A stretch of DNA of 64,000 nt from an uncultured Gemmatimonadales bacterium (lineage in GTDB: Bacteria > Gemmatimonadota > Gemmatimonadetes > Gemmatimonadales > GWC2-71-9), in NCBI GenBank assembly GCA_963825055.1, contig CAWGSK010000034.1, positions 96,001 through 160,000 on the forward strand, in the 5' to 3' direction. The position numbers and the translations under genes are program-made. Every line of letters starts with the position of its first letter. Positions within the stretch are counted from its first letter, which is position 1. The notes under the pieces were generated by a model, which worked only from the letters and a program-made list of their open reading frames with translations, ran no database searches and was not told where the DNA came from. Shown here piece after piece: positions 55,576-59,671 of this stretch.

Positions 55576-55634
55576 GAAGGGCGAAGGTCGAAGGGCGAAG
55601 GTCGAAGGTCGAAGGGCGAAGGTCGAAGGTCGAA
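55576..55634. repeat. Heptamer array GAAGG(G/T)C x8
   Basis: Read directly; begins immediately after the stop codon. Confidence 0.95.
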
Positions 55635-56457: not shown

Positions 56458-56485
56458 GAAGGTCGAAGGTCGAAGGTCGGAGGTC
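56458..56485. repeat. Heptamer array GAAGGTC x4 (last copy variant)
   Basis: Directly upstream of the DUF1801 start codon. Confidence 0.85.
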
Positions 56486-56542: not shown

Positions 56543-56607
56543 CGACACCCGACACCCGACACCCGACACCCGACACCCGACACCCGACACCCGACACCCG
56601 ACACCCG
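56543..56607. repeat. Perfect heptamer array CGACACC x9
   Basis: Read directly; runs into the ATG at 56608. Confidence 0.95.
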
Positions 56608-57198
56608 ATGAAACCACTCTTCTTCTCCACCCCCGGTCGCTTCCGTGCCTGGCTTCGCCGGCATCATGACTCACATGACGAGCTTCTGGTCGGGTTCTAC
56701 AAGGTCGGCTCCGGCCGTCCCAGCATGACGTGGCCCGAGTCGGTGGACGAGGCACTGTGCTTCGGCTGGATCGACGGGGTGCGCCGGAGCCTGGATGAGG
56801 AGAGCTACACGATTCGATTCACGCCAAGGCGGCCCGGCAGCACCTGGAGCGCGGTGAACATCCGCAAGGTCGAGGCGCTGATCTCGGCGGGGAGGATGGA
56901 GGCGCCGGGGCTCGCGCGCTGGAAGGAGCGGGAGGAAGGGAATTCGAGAATCTACTCCTACGAGCAGCGCCGGGGGGCCACGCTCGAGGGAGATGCGCTC
57001 GAGGCGATCCAGTCCGTCCCGAATGCCTGGGCGTATTTTCAGTCCCAGCCACCCTGGTACCGCCGTACCGCGAGCTTCTGGGTAACGTCTGCCAGGAAAC
57101 CCGAGACACGCCAGCGGCGCCTGGAGACGCTGATCGCGGACTCGGCGGCCGGCCGGCCGATCAAGCCGCTGGCCCGGCCCGCACGCCGGAAGAAATAG
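56608..57198 (+). CDS. YdeI/OmpD-associated (OmdA) family protein
   Basis: FRAWL, VDEALCFGWID, RFTPRR..S.WS..N, SARKPETRQRRL. Confidence 0.9.
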   Translation: MKPLFFSTPGRFRAWLRRHHDSHDELLVGFYKVGSGRPSMTWPESVDEALCFGWIDGVRRSLDEESYTIRFTPRRPGSTWSAVNIRKVEALISAGRMEAPGLARWKEREEGNSRIYSYEQRRGATLEGDALEAIQSVPNAWAYFQSQPPWYRRTASFWVTSARKPETRQRRLETLIADSAAGRPIKPLARPARRKK

Positions 57199-57206
57199 CG
57201 ACCGGA

Positions 57207-57285
57207 CTACTCAACCACTCCACGACTCAACGACTCAACCACTCTACCACTCGACCACTCCGACACCCGACACCCGACACCCGAC
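57207..57285. repeat. Compound array: octamer C(C/G)ACTCAA-like x~7 followed by heptamer CGACACC x3
   Basis: Read directly between convergent genes. Confidence 0.85.
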
Positions 57286-57297
57286 CGTCGACCTCCC

Positions 57298-57843
57298 TCA
57301 CGAACACCCCTCCACGTACTCCACCGCTGGCCGCCTGCCGGCTCTGTAGCGTGTCACGACCGCGCCATCGGTCTCGAACACGAGCGCAAACGTGGTATCG
57401 TCCGGCGCCAGGACCGTGAGGTAGTGCCACTCCGGGCCGCCGTATTTGTGCGGGGTCTGCCGGACGGCGTCTCCGTACAGGTTCCGGATCTGCTCCTCGG
57501 TGTTGCCGAGTCCTGCCCCGTCGACCGTGAGCACGCCGGGAACATCCACGTCCACCCGCTCGACGGTGTCTGCGACGACCATGAGTTCCACGCCGTCGGG
57601 GAATGATGCCGGGTCGACATAGGCGCAGTCGCCGCCCGGGTCATAGGCGGGGGCGAGGCTGTCGTGCAGGGTGGCGTTGAGCTGCCGGACTGTCCACCCG
57701 AAGCGTACCGGGCCGGCCTGGTGCGCGCTGATGACGGGCGCCGCCGGGGGCGTCGCGGCCGATGCCGCCTTGTCGGCGTCCTGGTGCCCGCTGCAGCCGG
57801 GCAGCAGGGCGGGGAGGAGGAGAAGAAGGACGTGTAGACGCAT
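57298..57843 (-). CDS. Hypothetical lipoprotein
   Basis: GGAG RBS; lipobox LPGC; C-terminal YRAG..PAVEYVEGCS. Confidence 0.75.
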   Translation of the reverse strand: MRLHVLLLLLPALLPGCSGHQDADKAASAATPPAAPVISAHQAGPVRFGWTVRQLNATLHDSLAPAYDPGGDCAYVDPASFPDGVELMVVADTVERVDVDVPGVLTVDGAGLGNTEEQIRNLYGDAVRQTPHKYGGPEWHYLTVLAPDDTTFALVFETDGAVVTRYRAGRRPAVEYVEGCS

Positions 57844-57949
57844 GAGTATGGTCTCCGGAATGGCGGCCGGCCCACTTGCGCACCCCGGCCGTGTCGAAGT
57901 AACCTGAACGCTCAGCCCGATGTTCCACCCCAACCGAGGAGGTGATCCA

Positions 57950-58012
57950 TTGTCCAGTGACAGTAGCATTCGAGGCTCGACCAGGGCAAACGATCGCCTG
58001 GCCGGCTGCTAG
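57950..58012 (+). other. Candidate 20-aa small ORF (TTG start; SSDSSIRGSTRANDRLAGC) inside a structured intergenic transcript
   Basis: AGGAGGTGATCCA immediately upstream; promoter-like TTGCGC-N18-TAACCT at 57876-57905; downstream hairpin. Confidence 0.5.
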
Positions 58013-58125
58013 ACACCTCGGAGACGAGTCGGTTGTCCGCCGTAACCAGCGCGGATCGTCTCGAGCTTCGTATGCCAGGATCGCGCCGTCCGACACCATG
58101 TCGGGCGGCGCGTCGTATATAAGAC

Positions 58126-58878
58126 ATGGCCGCCACTCTCCCACCCTACTGGCGCGACACCCGCGCCCCCCGCTACAGCGTCCTCTTCGCGCTGCCGTTG
58201 CTCGCGCTGTACGAGCTGCTCGCCTTCGTTCTCTCGCACGACGCGATCCGCGGGGTCCGGAACGGCGCCGACGTCCTTCTCAAGAGCGTGTTCATCATGG
58301 CCGGGGGAAGGCGCGGTGTGGCGGCCTTCGGTATCCTCCTGGTCGGGACGGCGGTGGTGCTGGTCGTGCGGGACTGGCGCGCCCACGGGCCACCGCGTCC
58401 GGCCCGGTTCGTCGGCATGATGGCCGAGAGCATCGTGTATGGCCTGGCGTTCGGGCTGGTCGCCGGGGTATTGACCAATCTCCTCCTCAACGGCCCCCGC
58501 GCCCTCATGCTGGTCCAGGAGCAGGGCGGCACCGCCATGAGCCGGCTCCCGGTTCCCTCGCAACTCATGGTATCGCTGGGTGCGGGCATTTACGAGGAGC
58601 TGCTCTTCCGGGTCATGCTGGTGGGAGGCCTGGCCTGGCTGGGACGTAAATGGGGGTGGCGTCCGCCGGCGGCGGGCGTCTTCGCCACGCTGGTGGGGGC
58701 GCTCATCTTCTCGGCGTTTCACTACATCGGCCCGTACGGCGATCCGCTCGAGCTCTCCAGCTTCACCTTCCGCGCGATTGCCGGGGTCCTGTTCAGCGGG
58801 CTCTACCTGCTGCGGGGCTTCGGGGTCACGGCATGGACGCACGCGCTATATGACGTGTTCCTGACGCTGGGATTCTAG
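58126..58878 (+). CDS. CPBP (CAAX/Abi) intramembrane metalloprotease
   Basis: EELLFR, FSAFHY, HALYD motifs. Confidence 0.85.
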   Translation: MAATLPPYWRDTRAPRYSVLFALPLLALYELLAFVLSHDAIRGVRNGADVLLKSVFIMAGGRRGVAAFGILLVGTAVVLVVRDWRAHGPPRPARFVGMMAESIVYGLAFGLVAGVLTNLLLNGPRALMLVQEQGGTAMSRLPVPSQLMVSLGAGIYEELLFRVMLVGGLAWLGRKWGWRPPAAGVFATLVGALIFSAFHYIGPYGDPLELSSFTFRAIAGVLFSGLYLLRGFGVTAWTHALYDVFLTLGF

Positions 58879-58882
58879 ATAT

Positions 58883-58950
58883 TCGAAGGTCGAAGGTCGA
58901 AGGTCGAAGTGGTCTCGGAGCGATGCCCCACAGCCCTTCGACTTTCGACC
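58883..58950. repeat. Heptamer array TCGAAGG x4 with two inverted copies, between convergent genes
   Basis: Read directly. Confidence 0.85.
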
Positions 58951-59615
58951 TACTTCGCAGTCTTCGCCGTGTAGATGGAATCCAGGATCCTGGAGAATGG
59001 CTGCACCGGCACGGCCCCCACCAGCAGTCCCCCCTCGATGTAGAACGTCGGCGTGCTGTTGGCGCCGGCCCGGGCTGCTCCCTCGGCGTCCCGCTTCACG
59101 ATGGCCAGGCCCTCGCCATTTTCGAGGCAGGTCCGGAGCGAGGCGCGCGGCAGCTTGATGCTGTCCGCCAGGGACAGCAGGTACGGCGTGGGATCATCGA
59201 GCTTCGCCCAGTCATCCTGGTGCTGGTAGATGAGGTCGTGGATCGGCCAGAACCGGTTCTGCTGCGCCGCGCACATCGCGAATTCGGCAGCGGCCACCGC
59301 ATTGGGGTGCAGCGAGGTGATCGGGAAGTTGACGAACACCCAGCGCACCTTGCCCGTCTCGACAAAACGCTTCTCCAGCGTGGGGAACGTCTCCACCGCG
59401 TGCTGTCGGCAGTACGGGCACTGGAAGTCGCTCATCTCGTAGACCGTGACCGGTGCCGCGGCCGAGCCCTTGGAGCGCTGGTTGAGCATGTTGCCGGTGG
59501 TGTCGAGCGGTGTGACCGGACCGGCGCCGGGGCGGAAGCCACCCACGCGCGGAAGGACAAGCAGCACCGCAGCGAGCGATAACGCACCGGTGAAAAGGAT
59601 TCGACGCATGGACAT
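58950..59615 (-). CDS. DsbA family thioredoxin-fold oxidoreductase
   Basis: SDFQCPYC, HPNA, STPTF. Confidence 0.88.
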   Translation of the reverse strand: MSMRRILFTGALSLAAVLLVLPRVGGFRPGAGPVTPLDTTGNMLNQRSKGSAAAPVTVYEMSDFQCPYCRQHAVETFPTLEKRFVETGKVRWVFVNFPITSLHPNAVAAAEFAMCAAQQNRFWPIHDLIYQHQDDWAKLDDPTPYLLSLADSIKLPRASLRTCLENGEGLAIVKRDAEGAARAGANSTPTFYIEGGLLVGAVPVQPFSRILDSIYTAKTAK

Positions 59616-59671
59616 CCCGACGGAAAGGGTCACCTGCACGACTCAACGACTCAACGATAAACGATTCCCGA

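What the first reader, a model, noticed from the sequence alone, without database searches (positions are those of the whole stretch)
57876..58070. Unannotated structured transcript with a 13-nt perfect anti-16S sequence and a 20-codon ORF
Seen: promoter-like TTGCGC-N18-TAACCT; then AGGAGGTGATCCA (57937-57949), the exact complement of the conserved 16S 3' end (UGGAUCACCUCCU) and far longer than any other RBS noticed here; then TTG and a 20-aa ORF to TAG at 58012. The region can fold back on itself (CCGAGG/CCTCGG over the RBS, TGTC/GACA, TAGCA/TGCTA, CCAGG/CCTGG) and is followed by a GAGACGA/TCGTCTC hairpin. Inference: a dedicated small RNA or micro-protein gene whose over-long SD could trap 30S subunits (ribosome sponge or hibernation-type role) or be gated by the fold. 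It could also be a leader controlling the downstream CPBP protease, a family that processes small peptides; the peptide ends in Cys.
Basis: partly seen in the sequence, partly recalled or inferred. Interest (0 to 1): 0.8.

Follow-up and report, generated by a model that had tools for sequence, protein, structure and literature searches.

The report
Ribosome-docking mini-mRNA gene (rre type)
This is a real, separately transcribed small folded RNA whose front end matches the tail of the ribosome's 16S RNA and carries a 20-codon frame; it is a Gemmatimonadota version of the published but still unexplained 'rre' mini-mRNAs of Alphaproteobacteria.

Summary
In detail: AGGAGGTGATCCA (57937-57949) is a perfect 13-nt complement of this genome's 16S 3' end, followed by TTG and a 20-codon frame ending at TAG 58012. 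It is not chance. The unit is about 205 nt (about 57912-58117) with its own promoter and terminator. It is a single-copy gene found in 86 of 151 genomes of class Gemmatimonadetes with a covariance model and in 109 of 401 with a strict pattern. A long-range helix between ORF codons 9-15 and a 3' box covaries strongly. The frame's length and stop are kept, but the peptide sequence is not.

Alphaproteobacterial copies of the same build include rreB of Bradyrhizobium (Hahn et al., PMC5711450) and match Rfam RF01867 (CC2171) below threshold. The window scores only 18 bits there. rreB binds 30S subunits and is weakly translated; its role is unknown.

The downstream CPBP gene follows in only 22 of 55 loci, so the leader idea fails, and the C-terminal Cys is not conserved. 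This scan has already reported the Gemmatimonadota form in other genomes. Verdict: a new-phylum variant of a known kind. No expression data were found.

The parts
57876..57905 (+). Sigma-70-type promoter: -35 TTGCGC (57876-57881), 18-nt spacer, -10 TAACCT (57900-57905). The transcription start is inferred near 57912.
   Evidence: Sequence. The same TTGNNN-N16-19-TANNNT arrangement lies at a fixed distance before the SD in 25 of 55 loci, against 0 of about 275 control windows. The generic consensus scan found nothing. No RNA data are available.
57914..57931 (+). Conserved 5' leader with C-rich anti-SD-like stretches: GCCC at 57915-57918 and ACCCC at 57927-57931. Either can mask GGAGGU.
   Evidence: RNAalifold helix 1 is GCCC paired with G-AGGU, paired in 96.8% of cells but nearly invariant, so there is no covariation. 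The MFE of the window's own RNA uses ACCCC instead.
57937..57949 (+). Extended Shine-Dalgarno: a 13-nt perfect complement of the 16S rRNA 3' end (UGGAUCACCUCCU).
   Evidence: Complement length was measured against the genome's own rDNA end: 13 here, 11-18 in Gemmatimonadota-type copies, 17 in most alphaproteobacterial copies.
57950..58012 (+). 20-codon ORF with a TTG start and TAG stop (MSSDSSIRGSTRANDRLAGC).
   Evidence: In 169 unique copies, frame 0 always closes after 13-25 codons and all three stop codons are used, while frame +1 runs 3-232 codons or stays open. Most indels are multiples of three. There is no codon periodicity apart from Ser at codon 2.
57974..57994 (+). 5' strand of the long-range helix inside the ORF. 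GGCTCGAC (57974-57981) and ACGAT (57990-57994) are separated by the invariant asymmetric loop CAGGGCAA (57982-57989).
   Evidence: RNAalifold and pair counts: 7 of 8 pairs of helix 2 show compensatory changes (for example UA 19 / CG 19), and 0 of 500 shuffles reach the observed scores. Repeated on a second set of 41 copies, where 8 of 8 pairs covary.
57992..57998 (+). Invariant GATCGCC, a near copy of the 16S tail (GAUCACC). It could pair with GGTGATC of the SD as an alternative, SD-masking helix.
   Evidence: It is 100% pairable in 38 of 38 sequences, but both sides are invariant, so this is neither supported nor refuted. The motif sits in a different reading frame in long-type and short-type or rreB copies, which points to RNA-level constraint. 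It was part of the search pattern, so its constancy in pattern-derived loci is by construction.
58055..58067 (+). 3' box ATCGTCTCGAGCT, the 3' strand of the long-range helix.
58082..58120 (+). Terminator-like hairpin CGCGCCGTCCGACA-CCA-TGTCGGGCGGCGCG (58082-58112), followed by TCGTATAT.
   Evidence: Helix 4 of the alignment has compensatory changes in 10 of 10 pairs. Comparable GC hairpins with T-rich tails lie 140-200 nt after the SD in most loci listed before the script timed out. The generic terminator scan did not call it, because the T run is weak.
58126..58878 (+). Downstream neighbour: a CPBP / Rce1-like membrane protease gene. It is not part of the element.
   Evidence: Pfam PF02517, E 3.7e-11. 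It follows the element in 22 of 55 unique loci only.

Best explanation
The element is a stand-alone gene for a structured mini-mRNA of about 205 nt, of the rre type ('ribosome-regulated expression').

Its leader carries a 13-nt complement of the free 3' tail of 16S rRNA, so the RNA docks onto 30S subunits much more tightly than an ordinary mRNA. This step is inferred from rreB, where it was shown. The docking site is partly masked by C-rich leader sequence and possibly by an internal 16S-tail mimic, GAUCGCC.

The fully paired spacer and the weak TTG start keep translation of the 20-codon frame low. When a ribosome does read the frame, it must melt the covarying long-range helix formed by codons 9-15 and the 3' box. 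That probably exposes the RNA to decay, as rreB turnover depends on its start codon.

What selection keeps is the RNA architecture and the act of translation (start, length, stop), not the peptide. The physiological output is unknown. The neighbouring CPBP gene is not controlled by it.
For: Shown here:
- The exact 13-nt complement to the genome's own 16S end.
- A promoter conserved in position and a covarying terminator.
- One copy per genome in every positive genome: 109 of 401 by strict pattern, with 0 hits to the reversed control, and 86 of 151 by covariance model, for example f7 31/32 and f6 31/35.
- A covarying long-range helix overlapping the ORF.
- The window's own RNA folds better than shuffles, z = -3.7, with the same helix.
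- The ORF length is always 13-25 codons, the three stop codons interchange, and most indels are in frame.
- There is no amino-acid-level signal beyond Ser2.

Link to the known family:
- Alphaproteobacterial loci found with the same pattern have the same order of parts, and Bradyrhizobium copies encode the 14-aa frame that PMC5711450 describes for rreB (its abstract and section 13).
- Those loci hit RF01867 at 31-70 bits. The short Gemmatimonadota type hits it at 36.5 bits, E 1.3e-4.
- My Gemmatimonadota model hits the Bradyrhizobium copies at 12-27 bits.

Mechanistic steps (30S binding, weak translation caused by the extended SD and the non-ATG start, start-codon-dependent decay) are taken from PMC5711450 (abstract, sections 13, 18 and 19 read). 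For this RNA they are inference.
Against: - There is no transcript, ribosome-binding or translation data for any Gemmatimonadota copy, and no RNA run was listed.
- The complement here is 13 nt, not the 16-17 nt used to define rre genes. The start is TTG, not GTG, and lies just outside the complementary stretch.
- The window's element fails Rfam's RF01867 threshold by a wide margin (18.3 against 75 bits, E 0.39).
- Much of the cross-phylum similarity lies in the SD, which is dictated by 16S rRNA, and in a generic terminator. Convergence rather than common descent is therefore not excluded.
- The alphaproteobacterial loci were picked with a pattern that already fixed the SD, start region and GATCGCC, which inflates.
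- Within the window's own family the model finds the element in only 10 of 28 genomes.
- In the window's own clade the element always sits just upstream of the CPBP gene, and its terminator has a poor T run, so some read-through coupling cannot be ruled out.
Confidence: 0.7

Rival explanations
1. It is a cis-acting leader or attenuator. Translation of the 20-codon frame would decide between the long-range helix and the terminator, and so control read-through into the CPBP protease gene.
For: In the window and 21 further loci of one clade, the CPBP gene follows on the same strand 160-270 nt after the SD. The terminator's T run is weak and ends 13 nt before the CPBP ATG. The ORF overlaps a helix that a ribosome would melt.
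Against: In 33 of 55 loci no CPBP follows. The downstream genes differ (PKS, PQQ dehydrogenase, acyl-CoA dehydrogenase, protein kinase and others) or lie on the opposite strand, yet the element keeps its terminator. In two f2 loci the CPBP gene is upstream and divergent. No conserved antiterminator pairing with the terminator stem was seen.
Confidence: 0.07
2. It is a purely non-coding trans-acting small RNA. The SD-like stretch and the frame are not used for translation, and the RNA acts by pairing with mRNAs or binding a protein, for example through the invariant GGGCAA loop.
For: Conservation is at the nucleotide level with no codon periodicity. The helices covary strongly. Invariant single-stranded motifs are present. 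RF01867 is catalogued as an sRNA.
Against: The start codon lies 7 nt after GGAGG. The frame always closes after 13-25 codons with interchangeable TAA, TAG and TGA, and most indels are multiples of three. rreB-egfp fusions are translated, weakly (PMC5711450).
Confidence: 0.13
3. It is a micro-protein gene whose 20-aa peptide is the active product, for example a substrate or partner of the neighbouring CPBP protease or DsbA-like protein.
For: The ORF is conserved in length. The N-terminal Met-Ser and the ASDR motif recur. CPBP and DsbA-like genes are neighbours in f1, and one or the other lies nearby in three of the four f2 loci examined.
Against: The middle of the peptide varies freely and follows the RNA helix. 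ASDR is fixed at all three codon positions, and the same nucleotides are read in another frame in the short type. The C-terminal Cys is present in 12 of 67 copies. Synthetic RreB and RreR peptides were unstructured (PMC5711450). Neighbours are not conserved across families.
Confidence: 0.08
4. It is a chance SD-like 13-mer in an ordinary intergenic spacer.
For: One other exact 12-mer in the genome lies inside a coding frame, so chance copies exist.
Against: The element is conserved across the class, single-copy, and carries covarying structure.
Confidence: 0.01

Closest known systems
rre small mRNAs: rreB (Bradyrhizobiaceae) and rreR (Rhodobacterales); Hahn et al., RNA Biol 2016/17, 14:1353, PMC5711450
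   Same: A stand-alone small transcript of about 165-205 nt with its own promoter and terminator. An extended SD that pairs with the free 16S tail. A weak non-ATG start. A 14-22-codon frame whose peptide is poorly conserved between clades. GAUCGCC inside the frame, able to pair with the SD. A helix between the frame and a 3' segment ahead of the terminator. A genomic context that varies between lineages.
   Different: The phylum is Gemmatimonadota, whereas the paper reports only Alphaproteobacteria. The complement is 13 nt here (11-18 in the class) against 16-17 nt. The start is TTG, outside the complementary stretch, instead of a GTG whose first base closes it. The long type has an extra invariant GGGCAA loop and a longer variable insert. 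30S binding and weak translation are shown only for rreB.
Rfam RF01867, CC2171 (Caulobacter sRNA). Northern-validated in Methylorubrum extorquens (bioRxiv 10.1101/2022.01.24.477521, passages read).
   Same: The model consensus begins GAAAGGAGGUGAUCCAGUGUCU, that is, the same docking site and start. Alphaproteobacterial loci of this build score 31-70 bits, and the short Gemmatimonadota type scores 36.5 bits.
   Different: The window scores 18.3 bits, E 0.39, against a gathering score of 75. Rfam's long-range helix pairs codons 3-5 with a segment before the terminator, not codons 9-15. The family is catalogued as a non-coding sRNA of unknown function. The Hahn paper does not mention Rfam or CC2171, so the link between rre and RF01867 rests on my.
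Ms_IGR-5 (Rfam RF02471), an actinobacterial sRNA named by earlier reports of this scan as another 16S-tail-complement RNA
   Same: By those reports (not checked here): a stand-alone RNA with a long 16S-tail complement and a mini-ORF.
   Different: No match to RF02471 was listed for the window at E up to 10. No relation was tested beyond that.

Membership tests
rre small mRNAs (Hahn et al. 2016) | Stand-alone small transcript with its own promoter and terminator | tested here: met
   By sequence only. A promoter motif is conserved in position in 25 of 55 loci against 0 of about 275 controls. The terminator hairpin covaries in 10 of 10 pairs. No RNA data exist.
rre small mRNAs (Hahn et al. 2016) | At least 16 nt of perfect complementarity to the 16S rRNA 3' end | tested here: not met
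   13 nt in the window. Gemmatimonadota-type copies have 11-18 nt with a mode of 13-14, measured against this genome's rDNA end.
rre small mRNAs (Hahn et al. 2016) | Small ORF (14-18 codons in rreB/rreR) directly after the extended SD | tested here: met
   20 codons here, and 13-25 codons in all 169 unique copies.
rre small mRNAs (Hahn et al. 2016) | GTG start whose first base is the last base of the complementary stretch | tested here: not met
   The start is TTG at 57950, and the complement ends at 57949. Family f6 copies use GTG.
rre small mRNAs (Hahn et al. 2016) | Strong binding to 30S subunits, weak translation, and start-codon-dependent turnover | not testable with these tools
   Known only for rreB (PMC5711450). 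No RNA run was listed for this sequence.
Rfam RF01867 (CC2171) | Covariance-model score at or above the gathering score of 75 bits | tested here: not met
   18.3 bits, E 0.39, over window 57928-58112. The best Gemmatimonadota locus scored 36.5 bits.
Ribosome-dependent attenuator or leader peptide of the downstream gene | A constant downstream gene in the same orientation | tested here: not met
   A CPBP gene follows in 22 of 55 unique loci. Other loci have unrelated or opposite-strand genes.
Ribosome-dependent attenuator or leader peptide of the downstream gene | An antiterminator alternative that competes with the terminator stem | tested here: inconclusive
   No such conserved pairing appears in the RNAalifold consensus. 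Alternative folds were not searched systematically.
Type I toxin mRNA | Hydrophobic membrane peptide | tested here: not met
   The peptide MSSDSSIRGSTRANDRLAGC is hydrophilic. An antisense RNA was not looked for.
CAAX-type or RiPP precursor processed by the neighbouring CPBP protease | Conserved C-terminal Cys motif and constant linkage to the protease | tested here: not met
   Cys occupies the last codon in 12 of 67 long-type copies. Linkage holds in 22 of 55 loci.

The most novel reading that the evidence does not exclude
The RNA is a free-30S sensor or parking device shared by at least two phyla. A 16S-tail complement and an internal 16S-tail mimic (GAUCGCC) would form a switch that a vacant 30S subunit opens. 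The rare translation event then melts the covarying helix and destroys the RNA, so its level and occupancy would report or buffer the pool of idle small subunits, for example on entry to or exit from dormancy.
Probability: 0.12. Interest if true: 0.8.

Novelty: new variant of a known kind. Interest (0 to 1): 0.42.

Why it matters
rre mini-mRNAs are among the few natural RNAs built to pair with the entire free tail of 16S rRNA, and nobody knows what they are for.

Finding the same architecture as a single-copy gene outside Alphaproteobacteria argues for a basic, translation-linked role rather than a lineage-specific quirk. In class Gemmatimonadetes it is near-universal in several families: 31 of 32, 31 of 35 and 3 of 3 genomes by covariance model.

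The Gemmatimonadota alignment also adds something the published work lacks: a strongly covarying long-range helix that overlaps the reading frame. It shows that selection acts on the RNA fold and on the act of translation, not on the peptide. It also gives clear mutational targets: the SD length, the TTG, the GAUCGCC motif, helix B and the GGGCAA loop.

Practically, the element is missed by Rfam thresholds and by gene callers, so it is unannotated in thousands of genomes.

Tried and rejected
- Rfam at a permissive threshold on 57000-59000 gave no family near its cut-off.
- The generic promoter and terminator scan found nothing in 57300-58700. The promoter and terminator were established by comparison instead.
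- Public sequencing runs: 20 holders were listed and none is on record as RNA, so no RNA holder is listed.
- The terminator-finding script hit the time limit after about 100 of 176 loci. Its partial output was used only as illustration.
- The upstream ATG at 57920, which would give a 30-codon frame, was rejected as the start because it is out of frame or closed in relatives such as L006.
- The SD:GAUCGCC helix can always pair but never varies, so it could not be tested.
- Codon-position entropy gave no coding periodicity.
- Gene neighbourhood gave no constant partner. Membrane proteases (CPBP, M50B-like) and thiol-redox proteins (DsbA-like, redoxin) recur, but in a minority of loci, with different families and orientations.
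- Literature searches for rreB/rreR/Ms_IGR-5, for papers citing the rre paper's title and for Gemmatimonad + Shine-Dalgarno + small RNA found no description of this RNA in Gemmatimonadota and no functional follow-up. The library lacks most subscription journals.
- A look-up of earlier findings by the window's sequence found nothing.

Full report
**What is in the window**

The 282-nt spacer 57844-58125 lies between a lipoprotein-like gene on the minus strand (ATG at 57843) and a CPBP/Rce1-like membrane protease gene on the plus strand (58126-58878; Pfam PF02517).
- TTGCGC-N18-TAACCT at 57876-57905
- AGGAGGTGATCCA at 57937-57949
- TTG at 57950
- a 20-codon frame closed by TAG at 58010-58012

The genome's own rDNA end (locus L002) reads ...GCGGCTGGATCACCTCCTTTCT. 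The 13-mer is therefore an exact complement of the 16S tail.

The exact 12-mer occurs four times in the 3.5-Mb assembly, against none for the reversed control:
- one is the 16S gene itself
- one lies inside a DAHP-synthase-like reading frame
- one (L003) is unexplained
- one is this element

**It is conserved, single-copy and widespread**

BLASTN of the spacer against 40 relatives matched 10 genomes. In each case only the stretch 57907-58017 aligned, that is, leader, SD and ORF.

A strict pattern (GGAGGTGATC-NN-KTGTC-N15-45-GATCGCC) hit 109 of 401 genomes of the phylum. It always hit exactly once per genome and never in the reversed control. There were 0 hits in the 19 genomes of the phylum's other classes.

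I built a covariance model (R1) from 38 diverse copies. It found one match in 86 of 151 genomes of the class:

| Family | Genomes with a match |
|---|---|
| f7 | 31 of 32 |
| f6 | 31 of 35 |
| f8 | 3 of 3 |
| f5 | 3 of 3 |
| f4 | 3 of 4 |
| f1 (the window's own family) | 10 of 28 |
| f2 | 2 of 10 |
| f9 | 1 of 31 |
| f13 | 1 of 4 |

These tallies include two genomes flagged as unpublished (G119 in f8, G082 in f1). Without them the total is 84 of 149. The search used Infernal's stricter filters, and the model was built on the long type, so negatives are 'not found', not 'absent'.

Record titles from the public-genome scan place the carriers in Gemmatimonadales, Gemmatimonadaceae and Longimicrobiales.

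**It is a transcription unit of its own**

In 25 of 55 unique loci a TTGNNN-N16-19-TANNNT motif lies 32-45 nt before GGAGG, while the sequence between the hexamers varies. None of about 275 control windows taken 300-700 nt upstream has such a motif.

Longimicrobiales-type copies instead carry an extra conserved hairpin just upstream. Their promoter was not located.

A GC-rich hairpin with a T-rich tail follows 140-200 nt after the SD in most loci. In the alignment all 10 of its pairs show compensatory changes. In the window it is 58082-58112, followed by TCGTATAT. The predicted RNA is therefore about 205 nt (about 57912-58117) and ends 13 nt before the CPBP ATG.

**RNA structure**

RNAalifold on 38 copies (A1) gives four helices.

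1. Leader GCCC with G-AGGU of the SD. It is paired in 97% of cells but nearly invariant, so it is untested by covariation.
2. ORF codons 9-11 (GGCTCGAC, 57974-57981) with the 3' box (CTCGAGCT, 58060-58067).
3. ACGAT (57990-57994) with ATCGT (58055-58059).
4. The terminator.

Helices 2 and 3 are separated on the 5' strand by an invariant eight-base loop (CAGGGCAA in the window).

Pair counts:
- 94.5% of cells are paired, against 31-53% when partners are slid by 1-3 columns.
- 19 of 28 pairs have compensatory changes.
- 0 of 500 shuffles reach any observed measure.
- In helix 2, 7 of 8 pairs covary (for example UA 19 / CG 19, and GC 17 / AU 16).

A second set of 41 copies from public records gave 95.2% paired, with 8 of 8 covarying pairs in helix 2. 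That alignment is fitted to the model, and some of its species overlap the first set, so it is a partial replicate.

The window's own RNA folds to -91.7 kcal/mol (z = -3.7 against shuffles) with the same long-range helix.

Neither are CCAGG/CCTGG and TAGCA/TGCTA.

**The reading frame**

Across 169 unique copies, frame 0 from the start always closes after 13-25 codons. Frame +1 runs 3-232 codons or stays open.

All three stop codons are used at the same position among near-identical copies. For example, Bradyrhizobium copies with the same ...KRCHLAGIAR end carry TAG, TAA or TGA.

Pattern-match lengths are 58, 61 or 64 nt, with three exceptions (60 nt in two genomes of one genus, 62 nt in one) and a separate 45-nt short type.

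This argues that the frame is read. The start region and GATCGCC were fixed by the search pattern, so their constancy in these loci is partly by construction. The 10 BLAST-found copies all have TTG or GTG at the same place.

The peptide itself is not conserved:
- Among 67 long-type copies there is no third-position periodicity except at Ser codon 2.
- The ASDR motif is fixed at all three codon positions.
- The middle of the peptide follows helix 2.
- The last residue is Cys in 12 of 67 copies.
- The invariant GATCGCC is read as D-R in the long type but as I-A in the short type and in rreB.

The constraint is therefore on the RNA. GAUCGCC differs by one base from the 16S tail (GAUCACC) and can pair with GGUGAUC of the SD in 38 of 38 copies. 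Both sides never vary, so this alternative helix is only a possibility.

**What it is related to**

The public-genome scan with the same pattern also returned many Alphaproteobacteria: Bradyrhizobium, Nitrobacter, Ruegeria, Acidisoma and Methylobacteriaceae.

These loci have the same order of parts:
- GAAAGGAGGTGATCC
- a GTG start
- a 14-25-codon frame containing GATCGCC
- a helix between the frame and a 3' segment
- a terminator

They hit Rfam RF01867 (CC2171, a Caulobacter sRNA) at 31-70 bits, all below the 75-bit gathering score. The short Gemmatimonadota type hits it at 36.5 bits (E 1.3e-4), and other Gemmatimonadota copies at 22-29 bits. The window reaches only 18.3 bits (E 0.39).

Conversely, my model hits the short type at 27-44 bits and the Bradyrhizobium copies at 12-27 bits.

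A note from this scan's earlier reports led me to Hahn et al., RNA Biol 14:1353 (PMC5711450). I read the abstract and sections 13, 18 and 19, and searched the text for Rfam and Caulobacter. The paper describes the following:
- The Bradyrhizobium gene is rreB, a 165-nt mRNA with a 17-nt complement to the 16S end and a 14-codon GTG frame.
- The RNA co-sediments with 30S subunits.
- It is translated weakly because of both the extension and the GTG.
- It is stabilised when the start codon is replaced.
- Its function is unknown.
- Overproduction did not affect growth, so the authors doubted a simple ribosome-sequestering role.

CC2171 was also confirmed by Northern blot in Methylorubrum extorquens, again without a function (bioRxiv 10.1101/2022.01.24.477521, passages read).

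The Hahn paper does not mention Rfam or CC2171. Equating the two rests.

**Membership against likeness**

The element works like an rre gene in every feature that sequence can show. It fails two of the published criteria: the complement is 13 nt rather than at least 16, and the start is TTG outside the complement rather than a GTG that closes it. It also fails Rfam's threshold.

Much of the cross-phylum similarity is imposed by 16S rRNA. The shared GAUCGCC and the frame-to-3' helix favour common descent or transfer, but convergence is not excluded.

**The neighbours**

A CPBP gene follows on the same strand in 22 of 55 unique loci, all from one clade of the window's family, and a DsbA-like gene lies beyond it. 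In 33 loci it does not follow.

Elsewhere the flanking genes are M50B-like peptidase, rotamase, redoxin, VWA, DAP epimerase, PKS, acyl-CoA dehydrogenase, protein kinase and others, often on the opposite strand.

The element is therefore not a CPBP leader. The local linkage looks like inherited gene order. Read-through in this clade remains possible, because the T run is weak.

**Earlier reports of this scan**

The Gemmatimonadota form has already been reported from at least five other genomes, with the same reading. Look-alikes by sequence for this window were not on record. My identification through Rfam and the covariation analysis was made independently of those notes. The rre paper came from them.

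**Verdict**

The CPBP and Cys ideas are not supported.

It is a new-phylum variant of a known but unexplained kind, with good comparative support and no experimental data. No literature in the held library describes it in Gemmatimonadota.

Noticed in passing
window 55576-55634, 56458-56485, 56543-56608, 57209-57285, 58883-58909, 59638-59657: Several intergenic spacers around the element carry short tandem arrays of 7-8-nt units (GAAGGTC x8, CGACACC x9, ACTCAACC x6, TCGAAGG x4). The same GAAGGTC unit recurs at three separate places, and the array at 58883 sits in a hairpin-forming stretch that gave spurious miRNA hits.
   Followed up: partly
L003 (G000:C17:82650-82661, + strand), outside the window: A second 14-nt complement of the 16S end (AAAGGAGGTGATCC) lies in the same genome, in a less GC-rich stretch. 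It has no rre-like frame, GATCGCC or model R1 match. Its nature is unknown.
   Followed up: partly
window 58113-58128: The CPBP gene's ATG at 58126 has no SD. It is preceded by TCGTATATAAGAC directly after the terminator hairpin. A -10-like TATATA a few bases before the ATG would fit a leaderless mRNA, but this is a guess from the sequence only.
   Followed up: no
L047, L049, L053 (M50B-like peptidase upstream); L050, L053 (redoxin downstream); window and 21 other f1 loci (CPBP + DsbA-like): In two orders, non-homologous membrane metalloproteases and thiol-redox proteins recur next to the element, but only in a minority of loci and in different orientations. This is possibly a coincidence.
   Followed up: partly
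L047, L051, L052, L054, L055 (upstream of the leader): Longimicrobiales-type copies carry an extra conserved hairpin (GGACCGCGG...CCGCYGG) directly 5' of the GCCC leader, in place of the f1-type promoter. It may be an added 5' domain of the RNA.
   Followed up: no
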